A DNA stretch of 64,000 nt from IMG/VR virus record IMGVR_UViG_2872147552_000001. One strand, given 5' to 3'. The DNA is from a virus. Its lineage: Duplodnaviria; Heunggongvirae; Uroviricota; Caudoviricetes. The position numbers and the translations under genes are program-made. The first letter of the stretch is position 1; the number at the start of each line of letters is the position of its first letter. The notes under the pieces are model-generated. The model had not been told where the DNA came from. It saw nothing but the letters and a program-made list of their open reading frames with translations, and did not search any database. This document shows, piece by piece, positions 7,234 through 54,466 of this stretch.

Positions 7234-7291
7234 GACCTGCTTCCGTATATATATTTAATAAGTTACTTATTATTTATATACAGAAACAGGT
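7234..7291. repeat. 58-bp AT-rich imperfect palindrome, copy 1 (second copy at 40272-40329)
   Basis: gacctgcttccgtatatatatttaataagttacttattatttatatacagaaacaggtc; about 95% identical to copy 2. Confidence 0.7.
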
Positions 7292-7491
7292 CAAGAAACC
7301 AACCCAACCTAGTTTTTAGTCTCATGGTATGCAACCTTAAGATCTACTTTAAAACAGCTGCACGCCAGACGGTTGCAACATTGTTAAGTGTAACAAATTA
7401 TTGTAGATTACTCAGGCACAGAATAGCGTCTACAACTTAAGAAACGTCCAGAAATAAACAATGTTCCAATCACGTAGAAAGGGAATTAAGA

Positions 7492-8169: not shown

Positions 8170-8184
8170 ACTGCTTTAAAATAT

Positions 8185-8202
8185 AGGCGCCATCTGGCGC
8201 CT
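8185..8202. terminator. bidirectional hairpin terminator
   Basis: aggcgccatctggcgcct stem-loop between convergent lipoprotein and parG-like genes, T-rich flank. Confidence 0.6.
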
Positions 8203-8207
8203 TATTC

Positions 8208-8567
8208 TTAACTCTTCTTCATTAACTCGCGTTTAATTTCATCGGTACGCATCGTGACATCGGCAGCAGTGATCGCCTCGTTCAGCTTCACGATGTCCTC
8301 GATTTCCTGCGGTGTCTTCTCCGCAAGATGGAAAATAGCAGCACGAATCACATCAGAGCGGGTGAATTTCTCAAAGCGAGGGATGAACTTCATCATCTCC
8401 AGCAGTTCGAAGTATTCGTCTTCCAGTGACATTGTGCGGCTTTTAATTTTCTCTTTGCCACGAGTCGGGCGTCCCTGTGGTCTGACTGGTTGGCGCAAAG
8501 GAGTTGTGTTCTTAGCCGGTGCATCAGGCTCTTTGCGCTTTGCTAGGTCACCCATTTTCATGGACAT
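8208..8567 (-). CDS. small partition protein (ParG/RHH-like centromere-binding partner of ParA)
   Basis: 119-aa basic N-terminus, immediately downstream of and overlapping parA stop. Confidence 0.55.
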   Translation of the reverse strand: MSMKMGDLAKRKEPDAPAKNTTPLRQPVRPQGRPTRGKEKIKSRTMSLEDEYFELLEMMKFIPRFEKFTRSDVIRAAIFHLAEKTPQEIEDIVKLNEAITAADVTMRTDEIKRELMKKS

Positions 8568-9235
8568 TATTCTTTTTCCTCCAGACTCAACAGATAATCT
8601 ACAAATTCTTCAAACTCGGCTTCCGCCTTTTTGTCGCGCTCGCTACCGGTCATTTCAAAGATAGAACGACCAGACTCTTCCGCATCATCATAGACGTTGC
8701 GGTTATATAGATTGACTGGCGCAGACTCGATGCCAAACGTCTCAACAATCTCTTTAGCCGCCAGAATGCGAGACACTTGTGATGGCAAAGCCGGACACTG
8801 GTTCATGACCGCGCGGACCTTCACTTTATCGTTTACATTACGAACATTGTCGATAATAGGATCGATATCACGCAGAGATTTCAAATCACGACGCTTAGGA
8901 CGAAGCGGGATAATGATAACGTCGGCCATCAGCATCGCTTGTCGCTGAATTTCGGAGTCAAAGCCACCAGCATCTACCACGACAAACTCAGCTCTACCCT
9001 GAAGCGATTTTAGGTGCTTAATGATGTCATCCTGAACGTATGCAAAAGGAATCAGCTCAAGGTCTTCGTTCTGTCGACGGTCTTCACACCAGCTCGTTGT
9101 CGTGCGCTGAATATCTATATCGGTAATATAAACCTTCTTCTTCTTTTTGACTTTCAGGCAAACGGCAATTTGCTGGGCAACGGTGGATTTGCCAGGCCCG
9201 CCCTTTGTGCCGCCAACCACAAAGATCTTGGTCAT
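8567..9235 (-). CDS. parA: ParA-family partition ATPase (small type Ib)
   Basis: Deviant Walker A GGTKGGPGKST, Walker B VVVDAGG; 222 aa. Confidence 0.85.
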   Translation of the reverse strand: MTKIFVVGGTKGGPGKSTVAQQIAVCLKVKKKKKVYITDIDIQRTTTSWCEDRRQNEDLELIPFAYVQDDIIKHLKSLQGRAEFVVVDAGGFDSEIQRQAMLMADVIIIPLRPKRRDLKSLRDIDPIIDNVRNVNDKVKVRAVMNQCPALPSQVSRILAAKEIVETFGIESAPVNLYNRNVYDDAEESGRSIFEMTGSERDKKAEAEFEEFVDYLLSLEEKE

Positions 9236-38266: not shown

Positions 38267-39523
38267 CTATCGAGAACCACCAAGAATAACACGGTTTTTG
38301 ACTGGATACCTACGATGTACTGGATAGCCCAATGCGTCTGCACTATGCTCAATGCCACCTGTCTTATCCATATCTCGTGTTCCAGGCTTGTAGATGACTT
38401 TTTCCAGTGAATCAATCAAATGCTTGCACTTCGGATCGATATACAGCCGGATATCTCCAGATGCGGTCATCAGCATTCGGTTAACAGCATTAACACGATC
38501 CGCAATTGGCGGGTGCTTTTTCGAATAATCGACACGTAAGAATCCCTTCTCTTTGAATATGTCGACGTCAGACTCCCCGCGAGCATGTTGGCGATAAGCA
38601 CCTGCCGGATCTGGAAATACCGTTATCTGTGATTTCCAGCGCCAGAAGCGTCTCTCAAGCTCATCACAAACCTCTGCCGTGTTAGAGGAAAAGAGCACCA
38701 ATTCATCAATTGCCCATAGCTCACCATTTGGCTGAGGTTGCAAAATTACTGAAGACATCGGGTCAATGTTGAAGTCCTGCCCTACCCATATAGGCAACCG
38801 AGGGTTGAACTGAAGCGGTTTTACATGCACGTTACGATCGAACGGGTAGTAAACGCGCCCGGACATGTTCTCAAAGCTCGCCAGGTACTCCTGAGCGAAC
38901 GATTTCGGGTCCATATCGTTCTTAGCAGCTTCAATTTCCGCCGTAGGTACAAACGGAGAATCGGCAGTTACAAACTGCCAGCTCTTCCACTGTCCCTTTC
39001 TTTGCAGCTCTACGTTCTGGCCTATAGTCCACAGTTTGTGAAATTCCGAGAAGCCTTTTGGCGTACCAATGATCAGTGCACCGCCGCGTGTCGATGAAAG
39101 AGTAGGTCGTAACACCTTGTACCAGGTGTCAGCCTTCATATCCTGAAATTCATCAAGCACTACAAAATGCAACGCTACGCCGCGCAGAGTGTCAGGCTTA
39201 TCAGCACCTTTGAGGGCGATCTCCGAACCGTTCTTCAACACGATTGTCATCGTGGTGTCGTTCTTTTTCCTAACCCACTTACGAGGCAGAACTTCCTGTA
39301 GATCGTCCCACAAAATCTGGCGAGCCATCTGGTAAGTAGGAGCGACATACCAGACCCTTTGCTTTTTTTCCTTTGCCGCCGCACGAATAATAGTGGAGAT
39401 CGACAACCGGGATTTTCCCCAGCGTCGACCAGCACAAACAACTTTAAATCGATGCGGAGACTGGAAGACTTTCATCTGTCCAGAATGCAGTTGCACAAGA
39501 CTGAGCGAGGACGGGATTGCCAT
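38267..39523 (-). CDS. terminase large subunit
   Basis: Walker A CAGRRWGKS, Walker B VVLDEF, C-terminal nuclease-like domain; overlaps TerS stop. Confidence 0.9.
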   Translation of the reverse strand: MAIPSSLSLVQLHSGQMKVFQSPHRFKVVCAGRRWGKSRLSISTIIRAAAKEKKQRVWYVAPTYQMARQILWDDLQEVLPRKWVRKKNDTTMTIVLKNGSEIALKGADKPDTLRGVALHFVVLDEFQDMKADTWYKVLRPTLSSTRGGALIIGTPKGFSEFHKLWTIGQNVELQRKGQWKSWQFVTADSPFVPTAEIEAAKNDMDPKSFAQEYLASFENMSGRVYYPFDRNVHVKPLQFNPRLPIWVGQDFNIDPMSSVILQPQPNGELWAIDELVLFSSNTAEVCDELERRFWRWKSQITVFPDPAGAYRQHARGESDVDIFKEKGFLRVDYSKKHPPIADRVNAVNRMLMTASGDIRLYIDPKCKHLIDSLEKVIYKPGTRDMDKTGGIEHSADALGYPVHRRYPVKNRVILGGSR

Positions 39524-40155
39524 TATTCGTCCTCCCCTTTACTTCCATCATCTGTCGCATCAAATTCGCTTAGAGCTTCTTCTTCTAACGTCTCAAGCAA
39601 TTCGTCATCGATGATTTCAGGCTCGTCGTCTTCCTGACGTAATTTCGCCACCTGGGAAGGCGTAAGCTCACCAAATACCAGGTTCGGAATTTCTTCCTCG
39701 TCATTTTCCGCATGATCCATGCCCAATGCTTTGGACGAAACTTCAAAGCATTTTGCAAGGGTATTACTGGCTCTCTGTAAGCTCTTGAGAGAATCCTCAA
39801 TCGCCCCTAAAGGCTTACCCTCACGTTTGGCCGTAGTGACTTCGACCATCACCATCTGCCCCAACGCATACGCCCAGCCGTCATAACGTGTACGACGTTC
39901 TTCTATCTTTTCCGCACGGGCTTTAGCGCGAAGCTCTGCGTCAGATTTAAGAGACTCACGAACCATCTTCCCAACAGAGTCCGCGCCTTTCTCTAATCCT
40001 CGCTTTTTGAAATGTCTGGAGAGTGTTTCACGACGAATGCCGTACTCTTCCTCCAGCTTTGAGAGTGTATATTCGCCTGACGTCCATTTGGCTTCAGCTT
40101 CGGCCCACTCCGCTGGTGTCAGGCGAGTTTTTACCTCGTCTTTTTCGACCGTCAT
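39523..40155 (-). CDS. terminase small subunit
   Basis: 210 aa, N-terminal HTH-like region, acidic C-terminus; directly upstream of TerL. Confidence 0.7.
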   Translation of the reverse strand: MTVEKDEVKTRLTPAEWAEAEAKWTSGEYTLSKLEEEYGIRRETLSRHFKKRGLEKGADSVGKMVRESLKSDAELRAKARAEKIEERRTRYDGWAYALGQMVMVEVTTAKREGKPLGAIEDSLKSLQRASNTLAKCFEVSSKALGMDHAENDEEEIPNLVFGELTPSQVAKLRQEDDEPEIIDDELLETLEEEALSEFDATDDGSKGEDE

Positions 40156-48216: not shown

Positions 48217-48447
48217 ATGTTTGTTCTTATCGCTGGCGTTAACGTGCGCAATGAATATTTTGTTAATCGCATCGCTGGGATCGCTGGTTACGCTGGGCGC
48301 TCAGTCGAGTTTATCGATGAAACAACGCGTAAAATTGATTTATTGAGCGACCAGGAGCGAAAAAAAGCAGACGTGAACGACGCTGATATATTTTTAATGT
48401 TAAAAGCGTTTGTAGAAATGGGATTTAAAATCAGTTTACACAAATAA
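48217..48447 (+). CDS. hypothetical small protein (moron gene 3)
   Basis: 76 aa with TAAGGAG RBS (same RBS context as gene 2). Confidence 0.55.
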   Translation: MFVLIAGVNVRNEYFVNRIAGIAGYAGRSVEFIDETTRKIDLLSDQERKKADVNDADIFLMLKAFVEMGFKISLHK

Positions 48448-48453
48448 AATCGA

Positions 48454-48477
48454 GCGCCCATAGTGGGCGCTTTTTTC
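48454..48477 (+). terminator. rho-independent terminator
   Basis: gcgcccatagtgggcgc hairpin + TTTTTT. Confidence 0.7.
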
Positions 48478-48498
48478 GTTTCCAATACTCCCACCATA

Positions 48499-48524
48499 GC
48501 GCGCCATCATTGGCGCGTTTTTTA
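48499..48524 (+). terminator. second tandem rho-independent terminator
   Basis: gcgcgccatcattggcgcg hairpin + TTTTTT. Confidence 0.65.
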
Positions 48525-48935
48525 TTGTCTTTAACTCACTCCAACAACATAAAAATAAGCGCCAAAATAACGCCATAGACGCGCTTTTATATCCTTACCA
48601 GTACATACCCATTACTTAGCACATTAACGCGCTTAAAATGCGTTATATTGCGCTATAACGTATGGCTAATCATTGGCTTTTATTCTTGCTATGTGATCCG
48701 CGTTTATTTGTCGGCGCGGATCGGCATTTTGTGTTGTTCTGTATCCGCTCGCGTATTATGTGCGCGTGATTTTTCACATAATCACACCACTTAATCACGT
48801 ATGTGATTACGCTACGAAAGAAATCTGGATGTCTCAGGCGACGAAAGTCATCATAATTTTCCCCGCTCGCCTGTCCGACAACCGCTGGTTGGATTCCACC
48901 AGCTTCCCGATGTTTTTTTCTACATAAAGGCGAAT

Positions 48936-49055
48936 GCAGCCGTTTCCCGAAAAAATCCTGGCCGTTTCCCGTCGGCTCATGAATACGTTCCTCGCCGTTT
49001 CTGAAAATTTCCCTGCGGCAGCTGGTGGCTATAGAGAAAGGGCCGTTTCTGGCCC
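48936..49055. repeat. iteron-like direct repeats (GCCGTTTCCCGAAAA family), cluster A
   Basis: Four copies of gccgtttc(c)c(g/t)gaaaa-like units at about 48938, 48961, 48994, 49042. Confidence 0.55.
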
Positions 49056-49064
49056 TCTTCTCAG

Positions 49065-49547
49065 TTACACGCCATCAAGGATGTGGATGCGGTTGCTTGC
49101 GTATACATTCAGCATAAAGTTAGCGCAAAACAGTTTCCATGTATCAACGCCAGCGGTATACGTAATGTTTTTGCATTTAATCGCATTGTTGGCGATCCGC
49201 ATCCCCTGCGATACTGCTTCATCGTCGGAAAATTTGAACGACGATTGAGTTTTAATCCAGACAGAAATCTGCGTAGCGAACTCAATCAGCTTGGACTGGC
49301 AGAATCGCCCGGAGCGCACCGGAAAGACGAACGTTCCGAATCCAGAATTTACCACATACGCTTTCTCAAATACCCGCGAGTAACGACGATTGCCAATGAT
49401 GTCGCGTGCAATAATGCATTTTTCTTGTGCTGACAGTTCTACCGTCTCATTGTCGCGCCATGCACCAAGTACTCGTTTTTCAATGTCAGAGAACGTTACA
49501 GCGATATTGCCATGTGCGGGTGCGTTTACAGTAGCGATAAAATTCAT
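49065..49547 (-). CDS. hypothetical protein
   Basis: 160-aa ORF with AAGGA RBS; GAAAACAA.TTGTTTTC-type operator upstream. Confidence 0.55.
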   Translation of the reverse strand: MNFIATVNAPAHGNIAVTFSDIEKRVLGAWRDNETVELSAQEKCIIARDIIGNRRYSRVFEKAYVVNSGFGTFVFPVRSGRFCQSKLIEFATQISVWIKTQSSFKFSDDEAVSQGMRIANNAIKCKNITYTAGVDTWKLFCANFMLNVYASNRIHILDGV

Positions 49548-49724
49548 GATTAATTCCTTATCGTAAATAACAAATTGTTTTCTTGTTGGTGTTAATTATC
49601 GTTGTACGAATAAGGCGTCAAAGTGGAAAGTTGCGGTAGCCGGACGGGAACAGGTGGGTTTGTCGGTTGCCTGGAGGTAAGAGGTTGGTGTTTTTAGCCT
49701 GCGGGAAACAGGATGGTCATTTAA

Positions 49725-49744
49725 GGCCACCAGCATTGGTGGCC
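49725..49744. terminator. hairpin terminator (ggccaccagcattggtggcc)
   Basis: Perfect 8-bp stem immediately downstream of the 49752 gene stop; related hairpins at about 50196-50216, 51821-51839, 58827-58847, 63100-63120. Confidence 0.55.
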
Positions 49745-49751
49745 TTAATCT

Positions 49752-50039
49752 TTAGTGGAGCAGACCGATGTCGATGGTATCCCCTGAATCATCCACACGG
49801 ATCATCAGCATGGCGAAGGCGTTTAGTGGATAACTGGCGTGCCATTCAGGGAAGCGGTCATCTCGCATGAAGTCGGCAATGTCGTAAACGCATCCCTCAA
49901 AGTGGAAGAATCGCGTGCTTACCTGCTCGTCATATTCCACATGATCCATTTCTTGCTGTTCTGTTTCCGGCAAGTCCAGCCATGATTCAAGGAATACATT
50001 TTGTGCTTTAGGGGTAATGGTGAAATCAGTCATGAGCAT
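49752..50039 (-). CDS. small acidic protein
   Basis: Start at MLMTDFTITPK with GAGGA RBS (track ORF to 50165 would cover the upstream operator); strongly acidic. Confidence 0.55.
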   Translation of the reverse strand: MLMTDFTITPKAQNVFLESWLDLPETEQQEMDHVEYDEQVSTRFFHFEGCVYDIADFMRDDRFPEWHASYPLNAFAMLMIRVDDSGDTIDIGLLH

Positions 50040-50368
50040 ATCCTCACTGCGTAAACATGTTGTTTTCTTGTTGGTGTAATTATCGCAGTGTAGATAAGGC
50101 ATAAAAGAAGTTAATACAGGCTGAATACACAAGAAAGGTTCTGGAAGTTGATAGCCAGGTTTCAAACTAACCTTCGGTTATTAAAAGTCATTTAAGACCA
50201 CCAATGCTGGTGGCCTTAATAATTATCGACCGATTACGCTAAGGATCTTTTCCTCAACTGATTTGTTGTTGCGACTAAACTGCCTTGCGTATCTGATGAC
50301 AGAAGAGGCGTTTTGCTTTCTGACCATCTCGGCTCTTTCCTTCAGGCGTTTCTTGAAATCGCCCATAT

Positions 50369-50743
50369 TTACCACCAGGCGCAGAAGGTCAGTCTGTTAT
50401 TGTGAAAGTCGTGGTTCTTAATCAGATCTTCCACAATCTCTTTCAACTCCCCCACATCATGCCAGTAACCTTCATCGTACTCCTGACTGCCGAAGAAAAA
50501 ACCTTCCCGGGTAGGCAAGTACTCTTCGCAATTACTTTCGTTTATGTGCATCAAATGAGCCTTCAGAAAACAAATGTCATTCATCGTTAATTCTAAAAGC
50601 TCACAATTTTCGACTTCACCTACGTTGCGCTCCATCCACCCAACGAGCGCATTGAACTTACGGAAGTAAGCAACCTGCTTTCTGGATGCCTCGTTATTCA
50701 GATCGTTTTTAGGCTGTGTCTCGATATAGATATCAAGTCCCAT
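50369..50743 (-). CDS. small acidic protein
   Basis: Start at MGLDIYIETQ with AAGGAAA RBS (track to 50785). Confidence 0.55.
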   Translation of the reverse strand: MGLDIYIETQPKNDLNNEASRKQVAYFRKFNALVGWMERNVGEVENCELLELTMNDICFLKAHLMHINESNCEEYLPTREGFFFGSQEYDEGYWHDVGELKEIVEDLIKNHDFHNNRLTFCAWW

Positions 50744-50860
50744 GATGGTTTCCTTATTAAGTTGCTTCAGTGAAATCATTTTCACAAATCAGATAAGGCA
50801 GAAAACAAATTGTTATCGGGCATAAGAAAATGGCGCGGTTTACGCGCCATTTAAAGAGGA

Positions 50861-51256
50861 TTAAGCGAATACGCTTTCAGGGATTAAGGTGTCGGCAGGA
50901 ATGCCAGAGGTAATGCGCAGGCCGTACTGACCAATCCAGGCAGTGTTGGTATTCAGGTTGGAGGCGAATACGGTGTCAACCATATTCATCATTGGTTCAA
51001 ACACCTCTTCATCAACCTGGCGGAAGTAGTTCTCGATTTTCAGCAGCAGCGGGTCAGTTGCATCGAAAATAGACTGGTATTGAATCGCGTACTCGCCGCC
51101 GGAGGCATCACCTTTACGCACGATCGTACTGGCCTGGACTTCGGCACCAGTTTCGGTGTTGTACGTAACAACGGTGATTTTTGCCACATTCTTACCTTCG
51201 GCGGTTTCAGAGGCATAGTAAACATCAACTGTCAGTTTTTCGCGTTTAACGGTCAT
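50861..51256 (-). CDS. hypothetical protein
   Basis: Start at MTVKREKLTVDVYY with GGAGAG RBS (track to 51322); TAAGTA-TG-TACTTA operator at about 51301-51316. Confidence 0.55.
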   Translation of the reverse strand: MTVKREKLTVDVYYASETAEGKNVAKITVVTYNTETGAEVQASTIVRKGDASGGEYAIQYQSIFDATDPLLLKIENYFRQVDEEVFEPMMNMVDTVFASNLNTNTAWIGQYGLRITSGIPADTLIPESVFA

Positions 51257-51326
51257 TTCACTCTCCGTAGTGTATTGGTTATTTTTATATTCTATGATCG
51301 TAAGTATGTACTTACAATACAAAAAA

Positions 51327-51347
51327 GCCCCGTAAGGATGGCGGGGC
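51327..51347 (-). terminator. rho-independent terminator
   Basis: gccccgtaaggatggcggggc hairpin followed on minus strand by TTTTTTG. Confidence 0.7.
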
Positions 51348-51382
51348 TGTCGTACTGTCGACTAATTACCACTTGCACATTA

Positions 51383-51694
51383 TCAGGCTATTGCCATCAC
51401 TGATGCTCTCTGAATTTCTTGCTGGGCCACGCGGTTAACTTCCATCAAAGCCAGTTCGAGCTGATGTTCCGGCCACATTCTTTGAAATGCCATCCAGCCT
51501 TTTCCACGCTGGCGACGAACATTCATTACATAACGAGTAAAGGTGTTTTTATCGAAAGACACCGCTGTTTCACGGAACAGACGAATAGAGGTTCCATTGG
51601 CAACGATGTCCAGCAAAGTTAATTGAGCAACCAGCGCAGGCTTCTCTTTTCTCTTCTGGTCTTTGTCCAGACCAAGAACCAATGATTTTTTCAT
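51383..51694 (-). CDS. hypothetical small basic protein
   Basis: Start at MKKSLVLGLDK with ACGGAG RBS (track to 51724). Confidence 0.5.
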   Translation of the reverse strand: MKKSLVLGLDKDQKRKEKPALVAQLTLLDIVANGTSIRLFRETAVSFDKNTFTRYVMNVRRQRGKGWMAFQRMWPEHQLELALMEVNRVAQQEIQRASVMAIA

Positions 51695-51848
51695 CACAAC
51701 TCCGTAAACAACTTGTTTTCTCAATGGCGTAAATAATACCAGTAAGAAAACGGCTACAAAGCATAATGATCAGGTGCATGATCGATATGCAGGTTCTTCC
51801 CTGCGGCTACATATTAAGTTAAGCCAGCAATGCTGGCTTTGGTTGGGG

Positions 51849-52178
51849 TTACTCGAATACTTCAAGAAACTCCTGAACGTCCCAATGCTGGACGAGGTGA
51901 AGATAGACCTTAGAAATCACGTCATTTTCGCTATCGCATGTGAAGTAGTACTTCTGGCTGCGGTTGTATGTGTCCACACAAAATTCGCTCATATCCATAA
52001 AGTCAGCATCTTCACCCATGTCGCAAATCATCAAAGCAGGTGCGTCATCACGAGTCATCAGCTCAAGCACCCACCGCGAATTGATCAGAGTGGAAGACCA
52101 ACCTTCTAACTCATAAAACTGATCAAACTCTTTTTGAGTTAATTTCTTGATTTGGTTGATGTCGATATTTGCAAACAT
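51849..52178 (-). CDS. small acidic protein
   Basis: Start at MFANIDINQIKKL with AAGGA RBS (track to 52196); net charge about -17. Confidence 0.55.
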   Translation of the reverse strand: MFANIDINQIKKLTQKEFDQFYELEGWSSTLINSRWVLELMTRDDAPALMICDMGEDADFMDMSEFCVDTYNRSQKYYFTCDSENDVISKVYLHLVQHWDVQEFLEVFE

Positions 52179-52537
52179 AAAGCAATCCTTAAACAACTTG
52201 TTTTCTTGATGGTGTTATTATCGCAATAACGCACAGGCGAAAAAGGATTTTATTCCGGTGAATGTGGTTTTGGCAGTGAGTTTTCAGGTTCAGTACCGAG
52301 TACACTTTTTACATTATTCTGATTTAGTGGCCGAAGGTGGCTGGTGGGCAGAATAATCATCTCCCCGAAAACCTACTGAAATCGATTGTGACCCGTTGGC
52401 TGTCTGGCACAATTACGCTGTAGCTGGGCATTCAGAGGGAGTCCAACGGTAAGTTAGTCCGCCTGCACGTGAGCGCCTCTCTTCTTCCCGCACATTACAG
52501 GTGGGTAGCCGCAACTCTCCCTCACGCTATACCGGTA

Positions 52538-52680
52538 CGCCGCCGTTCCTGAACCGGCATCGAGCCTTTTCCCGAAATCCACACAGGCAACTCGACCGTT
52601 TCCCTGAAAACCTCCAGCCGTTCCCCGAAGGCAACCCAGCCGTTTCTGTAGCGGGATGCAGCTTTTTCCCTGTATGGACC
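52538..52680. repeat. iteron-like direct repeats (GCCGTTTCCCGAAAA family), cluster B
   Basis: About six units spaced 22-31 bp (gccgttcctgaa, gccttttcccgaaa, accgtttccctgaaaa, gccgttccccgaagg, gccgtttctgtag, gctttttccctgta). Confidence 0.55.
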
Positions 52681-53731
52681 GAAGGCTGACCGTAGGGGTG
52701 TTACGGGGGATAAAATCAGGAGTTGAATAAATACGAAAAAGGAGGCGACACCCCTCCTTCCCTCCCCACTTATACATACCTGGCTTCTTCGCTATACATG
52801 TTGTGTTTTATTCGTGTTTTATCTGTCTCAACCTCTCTATGGACGTTAACACTCACTCCTTCCAGAACGTTCTATACGGCGACTAATTCTGTTGGTGAAT
52901 TGGGTGTGTTGTTCTCTCTGTCGGTGTATGTGGTTTCGTTCGTTTTGCGGTGGTTCTTCTATGGGGTGTTCTCGTCGTTTTGGTGATTGTTCTTCTCCGT
53001 GTATGGAGTAATGGCAGGTGGGCGATTCCTTTCGTTGTTGTGTTTGAGTTGTTTGTCTGGAGTGTGAAAGGCTTTTGTAGTTATTCGTGTATTGGGTAAT
53101 GGCGTTTCCCGTGATTGTTCTGTTTCGTGTCTTTTGGGATTGAGAGAAGCCTTGCGGTTACAGGCTTCGTTGGGGGTTCAGTGATTCTGGTGTTTCTTCG
53201 CTGTTTGGGTAATGGCGTGTCGTGGGTATCGCGCGTATGAATGTTTTCGGATTGCCTGTGAAAGTTAGGTTGGTTGTCCGGTAGCCTGGGGAGAAGAGGT
53301 GGGTCTTTTCGGTAGCCTGCCATAAAGAGGTTGGTTGTTTTTGGAAATGGCATATGTGTTATTTAGTTGTTTTGTTATGCCTGAAAATAAGTTGTTTATA
53401 TGGTTATGTAACGCAACGGGAACGATTTTGAGCGTGTGTTTTTGTTGGTAGTGTGTTGGGTCGTCTGTGGTGAAAATTGGACGCTGTGGCGCTGTCTGCT
53501 GCGTAGAATTACGGGTATAAGCAGTGATGTGTGAAAACGTCAATTTTTTAGACCAAATAGGGTGAAAGCGTTGATGTTTCGTTGATCTGTTATTTAGTTG
53601 TTTTCTTGTTTGTATAAACAACTATAACCTATTGATATTTAAGGATGTGATTGCGGGTATGGAAGGGGAGTAGTGGCGATCAACGGATTCTTATAGAAAA
53701 GAATCAAATTGTGACCGCCATTATCAATGTT

Positions 53732-54466
53732 TTACTTAGTTTTGTTTAGCAGAGAGAGAATTTCATCACTAATTTCACTCGCCTGTTTGATAGCCAATGC
53801 AGTTACCTCTTCTATGGTTGGTGACTGTTGATGCTCATGTTTGGTTTCAGTTATGACAATGTGTTCTTCACCTGAATTTGCGCATAGTGCCGCATTGACT
53901 ATAAGGTTTGAGTAAGAATTTAGCAGAGCACTGTTGATAAACGCTTTCACGGTATTACTGTCTGCACCAAATACATCTTTTCTGACCGCTTCAGCCTCAC
54001 AGCGAACCCCTGCAGCAACATCGTGAAGAACATGTATGGCCTTGGAGCTTGTTTGTTCACAGTACTCAATCATTATTGTCGAATTGTTCTGTTCAACAAA
54101 TGATCTGATGCCTGACGATTCACCCATAGCATCGAAGGCAGCGTGACCCGCACTAGTAGAGATATCTTCGTAGAGTTCTTCATCGCTATCTTTTTCTTCA
54201 GGTGTCGAGGTGTCTTCATCGTCGTAATAGATATTGCCTTTAATCAGTGTTTTGGATACTTGATATAAACAATAAGAGACGAGATTTAAGCATTGGATTT
54301 TAGCTGTATTGTCCTTTGTCGCCTCGCTCTTCAGTTCTTTCGCTTCTTCAGTAAGGCTGTTGATAAGACTTTGTATTTTTTCCAACGCGTTAGGTGCACA
54401 CTCCGCGTTGTCCATAAAGAATTTATAACCAGTTCCAGGGATTTCTAAACTTTTCAACTTTTTCAT
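53732..54466 (-). CDS. hypothetical acidic protein
   Basis: 244-aa ORF, first gene left of the metG-proximal operator pair. Confidence 0.55.
   Translation of the reverse strand: MKKLKSLEIPGTGYKFFMDNAECAPNALEKIQSLINSLTEEAKELKSEATKDNTAKIQCLNLVSYCLYQVSKTLIKGNIYYDDEDTSTPEEKDSDEELYEDISTSAGHAAFDAMGESSGIRSFVEQNNSTIMIEYCEQTSSKAIHVLHDVAAGVRCEAEAVRKDVFGADSNTVKAFINSALLNSYSNLIVNAALCANSGEEHIVITETKHEHQQSPTIEEVTALAIKQASEISDEILSLLNKTK

What the first reader, a model, noticed from the sequence alone, without database searches (positions are those of the whole stretch)
48690..49060. Repeat-rich non-coding region: GATC-containing inverted repeats, TGTGAT/ATCACA palindromes and GCCGTTTCCCGAAAA iterons (candidate origin or centromere)
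About 600 bp without a convincing ORF contains a perfect inverted repeat GATCCGCG..CGCGGATC (about 48694-48723), palindromes such as aatcacgtatgtgatt (about 48793-48810), and four direct repeats of a GCCGTTTCCCGAAAA-like unit. A second iteron cluster of about six units lies at 52538-52680. Direct-repeat iterons with Dam sites and AT-rich palindromes are what plasmid and phage origins or incompatibility loci look like.
Basis: partly seen in the sequence, partly recalled or inferred. Interest (0 to 1): 0.5.

Follow-up and report, generated by a model that had tools for sequence, protein, structure and literature searches.

The report
Phased protein-binding repeats in phage-plasmid
Two clusters of a short repeated DNA word (GCCGTTTCCC), spaced two helical turns apart, are conserved in all SSU5/pHCM2/pMT1-type phage-plasmids; they look like docking arrays for an unknown protein, are not the plasmid's known replication origin, and may mark the phage-mode origin.

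Summary
The window is an E. coli SSU5-like phage-plasmid (about 96% identical to phage Cyrano). The direct repeats are real and far beyond chance. The core is AGCCGTTTCCC, always on the + strand. There are 3 units plus a fourth in a terminator loop at 48939-49051, and 6 units at 52543-52668. Spacing is 22 bp, sometimes 31-34 bp. In a complete 110.9-kb relative, strong matches occur only in these two clusters. Core and spacing are kept in more than 700 plasmids and phages of Escherichia, Klebsiella, Salmonella (pHCM2, SSU5), Enterobacter and Citrobacter; Yersinia pMT1 keeps cluster 1 only.

The GATC inverted repeat and the AATCAC/GTGATT palindrome exist but are lineage-specific. GATC is not enriched.

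The plasmid-origin reading fails in its specific form. repA, its unrelated iterons, DnaA boxes and GATC repeats lie about 73 kb away, outside the window. Near these repeats there is no DnaA box, no IHF site and no AT-rich unwinding element. A centromere is unlikely, because the partition type differs between relatives while the repeats do not.

Best guess (confidence 0.33): arrays for an unidentified conserved protein, acting in phage-mode replication. Cluster 2 and its conserved 0.9-kb strand-skewed non-coding flank would be the origin; cluster 1 would be auxiliary. A regulatory looping array is nearly as likely.

The parts
48939..49004 (+). Cluster 1: three phased units with core GCCGTTTC(C/T) starting at 48939, 48961 and 48994 (spacing 22 and 33 bp)
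   Evidence: conserved at 75-80% identity in 765 plasmids and in 50 distinct IMG/VR and plasmid sequences
49039..49056 (-). Terminator hairpin of the 160-aa gene (AGGGCC-GTTTCT-GGCCCT). Its loop carries a fourth copy of the core (49042-49049).
   Evidence: Stem GGGCC/GGCCC in the window versus GGGGC/GCCCC in relatives (compensatory change), followed on the - strand by TTTCTTTT in relatives.
49021..49028 (+). Chi site GCTGGTGG inside the conserved block TTCCCTGCGGCAGCTGGTGG, next to unit 3. A reverse Chi at 48896-48903 is specific to the window's lineage.
   Evidence: Chi is present in 10 of 12 BLAST-derived relatives and absent in divergent relative L176.
52543..52672 (+). Cluster 2: six phased units with cores at 52543, 52565, 52596, 52618, 52640 and 52662 (spacing 22, 31, 22, 22, 22 bp)
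   Evidence: present in 710 plasmids, none from Yersinia
52690..52790 (.). Conserved block right of cluster 2 (GTTACGGGGGAT-AAAAT..TTGAAT..). It holds a hairpin plus T-run on the - strand (52762..52736) and the invariant CACTTATAC.
52850..53750 (.). About 0.9 kb of non-coding DNA with extreme strand asymmetry (+ strand rich in G and T: GC skew +0.3 to +0.6, AT skew -0.2 to -0.6). The composition is conserved in all relatives examined.
   Evidence: PGAP calls no gene here in relatives; at background expression in the LF82 lysogen
48448..48938 (.). Rest of the conserved 617-bp gap between convergent genes. It holds + strand terminators at 48452-48472 and 48498-48519, a - strand terminator-like hairpin at 48574..48558, the invariant block GTACATACCCATTAC (48601-48615), three tandem 10-bp units GCG(C)TTAWAWY (48620-48649), and two GTGATC/GGATC words (48695, 48719).
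49065..52196 (-). Operon of about eight small genes of unknown function, bracketed by the two clusters. Most of its genes are preceded by a GATAAT box and the palindrome GAAAACAAnTTGTTT.

Best explanation
The GCCGTTTCCC units are binding sites for one sequence-specific protein, still unidentified, that is conserved in all SSU5/pHCM2/pMT1-type phage-plasmids. Several copies of the protein would sit on one face of the helix, 22 bp (two turns) or about 32 bp (three turns) apart. They would build a nucleoprotein complex at two places 3.6 kb apart.

The most likely job of that complex is cis-control of phage-mode (lytic) DNA replication. The six-unit cluster 2, with its conserved flank and the 0.9-kb strand-asymmetric non-coding stretch, would be the origin proper. 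The three-unit cluster 1 would be an auxiliary site. This resembles ori plus crr of satellite phage P4, oriL plus oriR of SPP1, and incC plus incA of P1.

Shown: the existence, phasing, orientation, exclusivity and deep conservation of the arrays; that they are not the RepA replicon; that they do not follow the partition type. Inferred: that the ligand is a protein acting on duplex DNA, and that the function is replication. Unknown: which protein binds.
For: 1. Non-random, phased, same-strand arrays found only at two non-coding sites of a 110.9-kb genome.
2. The 10-bp core is invariant and the spacers vary, even in a relative whose neighbouring 160-aa protein is only 51% identical. This is the footprint of a protein site.
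3. The units are not hairpins: 18 of 122 have a 4-bp partner, against a null of 9.3 +/- 2.9. There is no consensus RNA structure or covariation on either strand and no Rfam match.
4. The arrays are independent of the plasmid functions. RepA and its iterons are elsewhere. The partition type differs between pMT1 and this element.
5. All 55 Yersinia pMT1 records keep cluster 1 but lack cluster 2. From established knowledge, pMT1 is maintained as a plasmid and is not known to be an inducible phage. Cluster 2 is therefore not needed for plasmid maintenance.
6. The element encodes its own replisome: DnaB-like helicase, DnaG-like primase, Pol III alpha, ligase and a UvsW-like helicase. No lytic origin or initiator is annotated.
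7. Cluster 2 sits in a 1.5-kb gene-free region whose 0.9-kb G+T skew is conserved in composition across genera.
8. An unrelated high-GC viral contig (L181) has at least five CCGTTTCCC copies in a 130-bp intergenic region beside an AAA_25 (RepA/DnaB-like) helicase gene.
Against: No AT-rich unwinding element, DnaA box or IHF site lies next to either cluster. No initiator gene overlaps or adjoins the arrays. The helicase and primase genes are about 43 kb away. Cluster 1 lies between convergent terminators, an unusual place for an origin. GC skew and Chi polarity over the whole plasmid give no clear origin signal. The L181 parallel could be coincidence, since a shared 9-mer core among the many arrays in nature is not improbable. 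No papers on replication of this family were found. No experimental datum was available.
Confidence: 0.33

Rival explanations
1. Regulatory or insulator arrays. A small DNA-binding protein, possibly encoded in the bracketed operon, binds both clusters and loops the 3.6-kb segment. This silences or insulates the early-type operon, as lambda CI does between OL and OR, or as ribbon-helix-helix repressors do on tandem direct repeats.
For: The two clusters bracket one conserved - strand operon exactly. Cluster 2 lies 290-480 bp upstream of its first promoter-like unit, and cluster 1 lies just past its terminator. Cluster 2 follows a - strand hairpin plus T-run, and the C+A-rich (on the - strand) 0.9 kb looks like a transcription barrier. 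Arrays of 3 and 6 sites with roughly 22-bp phasing resemble operator arrays.
Against: A different, palindromic motif (GAAAACAAnTTGTTT; 30 matches against 3.2 expected) already occupies the promoter-leader position of these genes. It is the better operator candidate. The repeats are asymmetric and do not overlap recognisable promoters. No operon product matches a DNA-binding family. pMT1 keeps cluster 1 after losing cluster 2 and most of the operon.
Confidence: 0.24
2. RNA-level repeats. The - strand transcript carries GGGAAACGG words that are bound by the neighbouring FljA-family protein, a tandem Hfq/Sm-like RNA binder. They act as a leader, 3' UTR control element or sponge.
Against: A weight matrix of the repeat core finds no significant match in 18 enterobacterial fliC leaders; the best p is about 0.05. 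The 12-nt match lies in the variable spacer of one lineage. The promoter units of the operon lie downstream of cluster 2, and cluster 1 lies beyond a terminator. Expression over cluster 2 and the skewed region is low or at floor in the lysogen. Strict helical phasing is not expected for an RNA ligand. The leader palindromes resemble the Salmonella/Citrobacter-type fliC leader better (CAAGTTGT..AAGGA) and are the likelier targets of the FljA-like protein.
Confidence: 0.12
3. Partition centromere(s) of the plasmid prophage, placed away from the par genes as in phage N15.
For: Arrays of direct repeats in two clusters are typical of type Ib, II and III centromeres. No obvious repeat array lies next to the type Ib parA/parB-like pair at 8208-9235.
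Against: The repeats are identical in elements with different partition systems: type Ia in pMT1, type Ib here. They lie 40 kb from the par genes. Cluster 2 is dispensable in pMT1. No NTPase is encoded between the clusters.
Confidence: 0.07
4. Packaging recognition site (pac or cos) bound by the small terminase subunit or by the ParB-N-domain proteins.
For: Small terminase rings bind phased repeats. Two or three GTGATC words recur in the same intergenic region across relatives, a faint echo of the TGATCA/G hexamers of P1 pac. Loss of cluster 2 in the non-phage plasmid pMT1 fits a phage-only function.
Against: The terminase genes are about 9 kb away (38267-40155). The two clusters are 3.6 kb apart rather than flanking one cut site. 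GATC is not enriched. No data on virion ends were found.
Confidence: 0.07

Closest known systems
Iteron arrays of theta-replicating plasmids and P1-type prophages (oriR/incC plus incA; F, R6K, RK2, pSC101)
   Same: Same-orientation direct repeats with a conserved core of about 10 bp, a period of about 22 bp, two separate clusters, and non-coding location.
   Different: There is no rep gene between or beside the clusters. The sequence is unrelated to the iterons of the element's own RepA. There is no DnaA box, no AT-rich 13-mer region and no GATC cluster. One cluster is dispensable for plasmid maintenance in pMT1.
Satellite phage P4 ori plus crr, and SPP1 oriL plus oriR (phage origins built from repeated initiator-binding sites at two distant places)
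   Same: Two clusters of one short repeated word, several kb apart, in a phage that brings its own helicase and primase.
   Different: In P4 and SPP1 the binding protein is known and an origin lies in or next to its gene. Here no initiator is identified and the clusters bracket an operon of small unknown genes.
Lambda OL/OR operator triplets with CI-mediated looping
   Same: Arrays of three or more sites with a period of about 23 bp at two loci a few kb apart, bracketing a gene block.
   Different: Lambda operators are palindromic and overlap promoters. These units are asymmetric direct repeats away from the promoter-like units, and a separate palindromic operator-like motif exists in this genome.
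Centromeres made of direct repeats (R1 parC, pB171 parC1/parC2, pBtoxis tubC)
   Same: Clusters of short direct repeats, sometimes at both ends of an operon.
   Different: They are not adjacent to any par genes, they do not vary with the partition type, and the bracketed operon encodes no NTPase.

Membership tests
Iteron-regulated plasmid origin / incompatibility locus of the resident RepA (P1/RepFIB type) | Direct repeats of about 17-22 bp period in one orientation | tested here: met
   Spacing is 22 bp in 158 of about 270 intervals, and all units are on the + strand
Iteron-regulated plasmid origin / incompatibility locus of the resident RepA (P1/RepFIB type) | Repeats match the iterons that flank the element's rep gene | tested here: not met
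   The repA-flanking iterons are ATCCACTATAGAGAG-like, in NZ_AP025215.1 at 110131-1546. The weight matrix finds no GCCGTTTCCC unit there.
Iteron-regulated plasmid origin / incompatibility locus of the resident RepA (P1/RepFIB type) | Adjacent rep gene, DnaA box(es), AT-rich unwinding element, GATC cluster | tested here: not met
   repA lies about 73 kb away. No DnaA box with at most 1 mismatch and no IHF consensus beside either cluster; one IHF-like match at 53637 in the skewed flank, about 1 kb from cluster 2. No window of at least 70% A+T beside the units, and 2 GATC against 2.55 expected.
Iteron-regulated plasmid origin / incompatibility locus of the resident RepA (P1/RepFIB type) | Autonomous replication or incompatibility of the cloned region | not testable with these tools
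   Needs cloning into an ori-less or conditional vector
Phage lytic origin with initiator-binding repeats (lambda, P4, SPP1 type) | Cluster(s) of repeated binding sites in the phage genome | tested here: met
Phage lytic origin with initiator-binding repeats (lambda, P4, SPP1 type) | Identified initiator whose gene contains or adjoins the origin | tested here: inconclusive
   Neighbouring proteins have no known family or fold. Helicase and primase are 43 kb away.
Phage lytic origin with initiator-binding repeats (lambda, P4, SPP1 type) | Copy-number maximum at the site during lytic growth | not testable with these tools
   Needs marker-frequency sequencing of induced cells
Plasmid partition centromere | Site specificity follows the cognate centromere-binding protein and par type | tested here: not met
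   Same repeats with type Ia ParA (401 aa) / ParB (323 aa) in pMT1 and with type Ib ParA (222 aa) + 119-aa partner here
Plasmid partition centromere | Location beside the par operon | tested here: not met
   The par genes are at 8208-9235, about 40 kb away
Structured non-coding RNA (any Rfam family) | Match to a covariance model, or a conserved structure with covariation | tested here: not met
   No Rfam hit at gathering score or at E<=5 in the repeats. RNAalifold on both strands finds 0-1 covarying pairs. Unit hairpins are barely above null.
P1-type pac site | Clusters of TGATCA/G hexamers (Dam sites) flanking a cleavage region near the terminase genes | tested here: not met
   Two GATC in 617 bp; terminase genes are 9 kb away

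The most novel reading that the evidence does not exclude
SSU5/pHCM2/pMT1-type phage-plasmids carry a second replication system that has not been described and is separate from RepA/oriR. It would be a phage-mode origin built from two arrays of GCCGTTTCCC sites plus a 0.9-kb strand-asymmetric non-coding module. That module might act as an R-loop or helicase-loading zone, in an element that also encodes a UvsW-like helicase. An initiator of unknown fold would recognise the arrays. The switch between plasmid and phage replication would then be a switch between two physically separate origins.
Probability: 0.25. Interest if true: 0.65.

Novelty: new variant of a known kind. Interest (0 to 1): 0.45.

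Why it matters
This family is very common in clinical Enterobacterales. More than 700 plasmids in PLSDB carry the repeats, including Salmonella Typhi pHCM2, Yersinia pestis pMT1, and many Klebsiella and E. coli plasmids. How these elements replicate and switch between plasmid and phage life is largely unknown.

The finding gives a sharply defined cis element: nine sites with a 10-bp core at two loci. Such an element can be deleted, cloned, used as bait for its binding protein, and checked by marker-frequency sequencing. If it is the lytic origin, or a copy-control or regulatory hub, it would explain how the prophage is amplified on induction. It would also give a handle for curing or tracking these plasmids. 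If it is only a local regulator, it is of interest mainly to specialists.

Tried and rejected
1. RepA iterons or plasmid oriR. Rejected: repA and its unrelated iterons are elsewhere.
2. Protein-coding explanation for either region. Rejected: the ORFs are not conserved, match no Pfam, PHROG or NCBIfam family, and are not called by PGAP.
3. Known RNA families. None found.
4. Consensus RNA structure on either strand. Not supported. Per-unit hairpins are barely above null. The apparent GCCG/CGGC to CCCG/CGGG compensatory change in unit 3 is contradicted by several sequences with a G-G mismatch.
6. Mimicry of the fliC leader for the FljA-like protein. There is a 12-nt identity with E. coli fliC, but the core weight matrix is not significant in 18 fliC leaders. 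Kept only as a weak rival.
7. Chi polarity and cumulative GC skew as origin markers. No clean switch over the complete plasmid.
8. Repeats near parA/parB that would account for a separate centromere. Nothing convincing.
9. Literature on origins, iterons or packaging of SSU5, pHCM2 or pMT1. Nothing relevant found. One 2026 preprint that mentions the origin could not be opened, and Yamamoto and Kutsukake 2006 on FljA is not held.
10. Host-factor sites. No DnaA box at either cluster or its flank, and no IHF site beside the repeats.

Full report
**Identity of the window.** The region is 96% identical to Escherichia phages Cyrano, PhiR41_1 and CMS-2020a, and 99.8% identical to E. coli plasmid NZ_AP025215.1. 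These are SSU5-like phage-plasmids of about 108-111 kb. The same architecture is found in Salmonella phage SSU5, S. Typhi pHCM2, Y. pestis pMT1 and many Klebsiella, Enterobacter and Citrobacter plasmids.

**Anatomy of the flagged region.** Positions 48448-49064 form a 617-bp gap between convergent genes. The + strand operon ends at 48447. It runs from a UvsW-like helicase through a FljA-family gene and a 216-aa gene to small genes, and is followed by two intrinsic terminators (48452-48472 and 48498-48519). The - strand 160-aa gene ends at 49065 and is followed by its own terminator hairpin at 49039-49056. Three units with the core GCCGTTTC(C/T) start at 48939, 48961 and 48994. A fourth copy is the loop of that terminator hairpin.

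**The observation.**
- A weight matrix built from the units scores at least 15 bits only in these two clusters of the complete 110.9-kb relative.
- Cluster 2 has six units, at 52543, 52565, 52596, 52618, 52640 and 52662.
- Across 50 distinct cluster-1 and 35 distinct cluster-2 sequences, the interval is 22 bp in 158 of about 270 cases. Most of the rest are 31-34 bp, or 44 and 66 bp where a degenerate unit is skipped. This is phasing by whole helical turns.
- The GATC-containing inverted repeat (48695-48702 / 48715-48722) and AATCACGTATGTGATT (48793-48808) exist but are replaced by other sequence in relatives.
- GATC is not enriched: 2 found, 2.55 expected.

**Conservation.** BLAST at low stringency finds the cluster-1 block (48916-49058) at 75-80% identity in 765 plasmids, including 55 Yersinia records. 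It finds cluster 2 in 710 plasmids, none from Yersinia. In pMT1 an IS1541 insertion and a deletion follow the second gene of the operon. In a 64-sequence alignment of the intergenic region (60-99% identical to the window), the best-kept blocks are the terminators, GTACATACCCATTAC, and the repeat block with TTCCCTGCGGCAGCTGGTGG. That set was fetched with a pattern from this last block, so its conservation is partly by ascertainment. Within units the 10-bp core is nearly invariant, while the other 12 bp vary freely. A divergent relative (L176; 160-aa protein 51% identical) still has CCGTTTCCC in both clusters.

**Not the plasmid replicon.** In NZ_AP025215.1, repA is at 1-1056, about 73 kb from cluster 1 and outside the window. 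It is flanked by ATCCACTATAGAGAG-type iterons, TTATCCACA boxes and AAGATCC repeats. Neither cluster nor its flank has a DnaA box with at most one mismatch, and neither cluster has an IHF consensus or a stretch of at least 70% A+T beside its units.

**Not the centromere of the annotated par systems.** This element has a type Ib ParA of 222 aa with a 119-aa partner at 8208-9235. pMT1 has a 401-aa ParA with a 323-aa ParB. The repeats are the same in both.

**RNA or DNA?**
- There is no Rfam match at gathering score or at relaxed E-value.
- RNAalifold on either strand finds essentially no covariation. The one clean compensatory change is in the terminator stem.
- Only 18 of 122 distinct units have a 4-bp Watson-Crick partner downstream, against a null of 9.3 +/- 2.9. 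The units are therefore linear words, not hairpins.
- In the LF82 lysogen, the annotated CDS over cluster 2 is low and the one over the skewed region is at floor (supplement of PMC9928086).
- Strict helical phasing points to a duplex-DNA ligand.

**The surroundings of cluster 2.** It lies in a region of about 1.5 kb (52197-53731) in which PGAP calls no conserved gene in any relative. To its right come a conserved block with a - strand hairpin plus T-run (52762..52736), and then about 0.9 kb with GC skew +0.3 to +0.6 and AT skew -0.2 to -0.6. The same compositional skew, but not the sequence, recurs in SSU5, pHCM2, Klebsiella, Citrobacter and Enterobacter elements, with no conserved reading frame.

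**Candidate binding proteins.**
- The 160-aa protein next to cluster 1 is confined to this family. It folds confidently (pLDDT 85) but matches no known fold.
- The operon proteins match only PHROGs of unknown function.
- A 12-nt identity between the - strand of unit 2 and the E. coli fliC leader looked promising. However, the core matrix is not significant in 18 fliC leaders, and the match lies in a variable spacer.

**A separate motif.** The palindrome GAAAACAAnTTGTTT gives 30 matches against 3.2 expected. It sits between a GATAAT box and the ribosome-binding site of most genes of the bracketed operon and of the parA, terS-side and dnaB-like genes. It resembles the CAAGTTGT..AAGGA part of the Salmonella/Citrobacter-type fliC leader. 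It is the likelier operator of the phage repressor or of the FljA-like protein, which leaves the GCCGTTTCCC units to another ligand.

**Interpretation.** The data establish two phased arrays of sites for one conserved ligand. The arrays are unrelated to RepA and to the par systems, are present only in non-coding DNA, and bracket an early-type operon. One array is dispensable for plasmid life in pMT1.

I rank the explanations as follows:
1. A role in phage-mode replication, with cluster 2 plus the skewed module as origin and cluster 1 as auxiliary site (0.33).
2. A looping or insulating regulatory array (0.24).
3. An RNA-level target (0.12).
4. A centromere (0.07).
5. A packaging site (0.07).

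An unrelated high-GC viral contig has at least five CCGTTTCCC copies beside an AAA_25 helicase gene. This is a lead towards replication, but it may be coincidence. None of these readings can be proved from sequence; the experiments listed would separate them.

**Novelty.** No paper found in the searchable library describes these repeats. They are iteron-like, which is a known kind, but in an unusual setting: no adjacent initiator, no unwinding element, paired across an operon, and next to a long strand-asymmetric module.

Noticed in passing
window 6355, 9271, 40196, 40221, 49568, 50053, 50803, 51706, 52191, 54825, 54876, 58812, 63085 (15-mers): The palindrome GAAAACAAnTTGTTT gives 30 matches against 3.2 expected. 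It sits 8-12 nt after a GATAAT (-10-like) box and just before the ribosome-binding site of many genes: each gene of the 49-52 kb operon, parA, the terS side and the dnaB-like gene. It looks like a genome-wide operator in transcribed leaders. The Salmonella/Citrobacter-type fliC leader has CAAGTTGT..AAGGA at the same position, so it may be the target of the FljA-like protein.
   Followed up: partly
[not shown]
   Followed up: partly
window, whole; notably 48896(-), 49021(+), 49727(-), 50206(+), 52340(+): Chi (GCTGGTGG) occurs 21 times against 1.6 expected. Several sites are intergenic. Two lie inside a pair of 28-bp palindromic hairpins (TTAAGGCCACCAGCATTGGTGGCCTTAA at 49721-49748 and 50192-50219) that flank ORF 49752..50165. 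In the complete relative, 7 of 30 Chi sites fall within 73.6-77.4 kb.
   Followed up: partly
window 52850-53750: About 0.9 kb of gene-free DNA has extreme G+T (+ strand) skew. The composition, but not the sequence, is conserved in SSU5, pHCM2, Klebsiella, Citrobacter, Enterobacter and L176 relatives. Cyrano CDSs CYRAN_103 and CYRAN_104 and window ORF 52454..52777 here are probably not genes.
   Followed up: partly
L181:1530-1670 (IMGVR_UViG_3300046714_000194, 50.7-kb contig): An unrelated high-GC viral contig has at least five copies of (C)CGTTTCCC, one pair as the palindrome GCGTTTCCCGGGAAACGG, in a 130-bp intergenic region. The region lies just downstream of an AAA_25 (RepA/DnaB-like) helicase gene and upstream of a dATP/dGTP diphosphohydrolase gene.
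   Followed up: partly
window 48620-48649; L176:7735-7800: Three tandem 10-bp units GCG(C)TTAWAWY lie in the window's intergenic region. In the divergent relative L176 the same place holds about eight tandem 8-bp units TTTAGCCA/TTTAGCAG, next to three GATC-containing GTGATC words.
   Followed up: no
window 7234-7292: An AT-rich near-perfect palindrome (GACCTGCTTCCGTATATATAT ... ATTTATATACAGAAACAGGTC) lies in the gap upstream of the 249-aa / DnaB-like helicase / primase operon. It is another place a phage origin could be.
   Followed up: no
[not shown]
   Followed up: yes
window 48962-48985 (- strand) versus E. coli K-12 fliC leader (L095): There is a 12-nt identity, TGAGCCGACGGG followed by GAAAC, between the - strand of repeat unit 2 with its spacer and the fliC 5' leader. 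It is not supported by a weight-matrix test on 18 fliC leaders and is probably coincidental.
   Followed up: yes
window 8208-9235 (-) and 8176-8211: A type Ib ParA (222 aa) has a 119-aa partner, and no repeat array is visible upstream. A 17-bp-arm palindrome (TTAAAATATAGGCGCCA/TGGCGCCTTATTCTTAA) lies just downstream of the partner gene. The centromere of this system is not identified.
   Followed up: no
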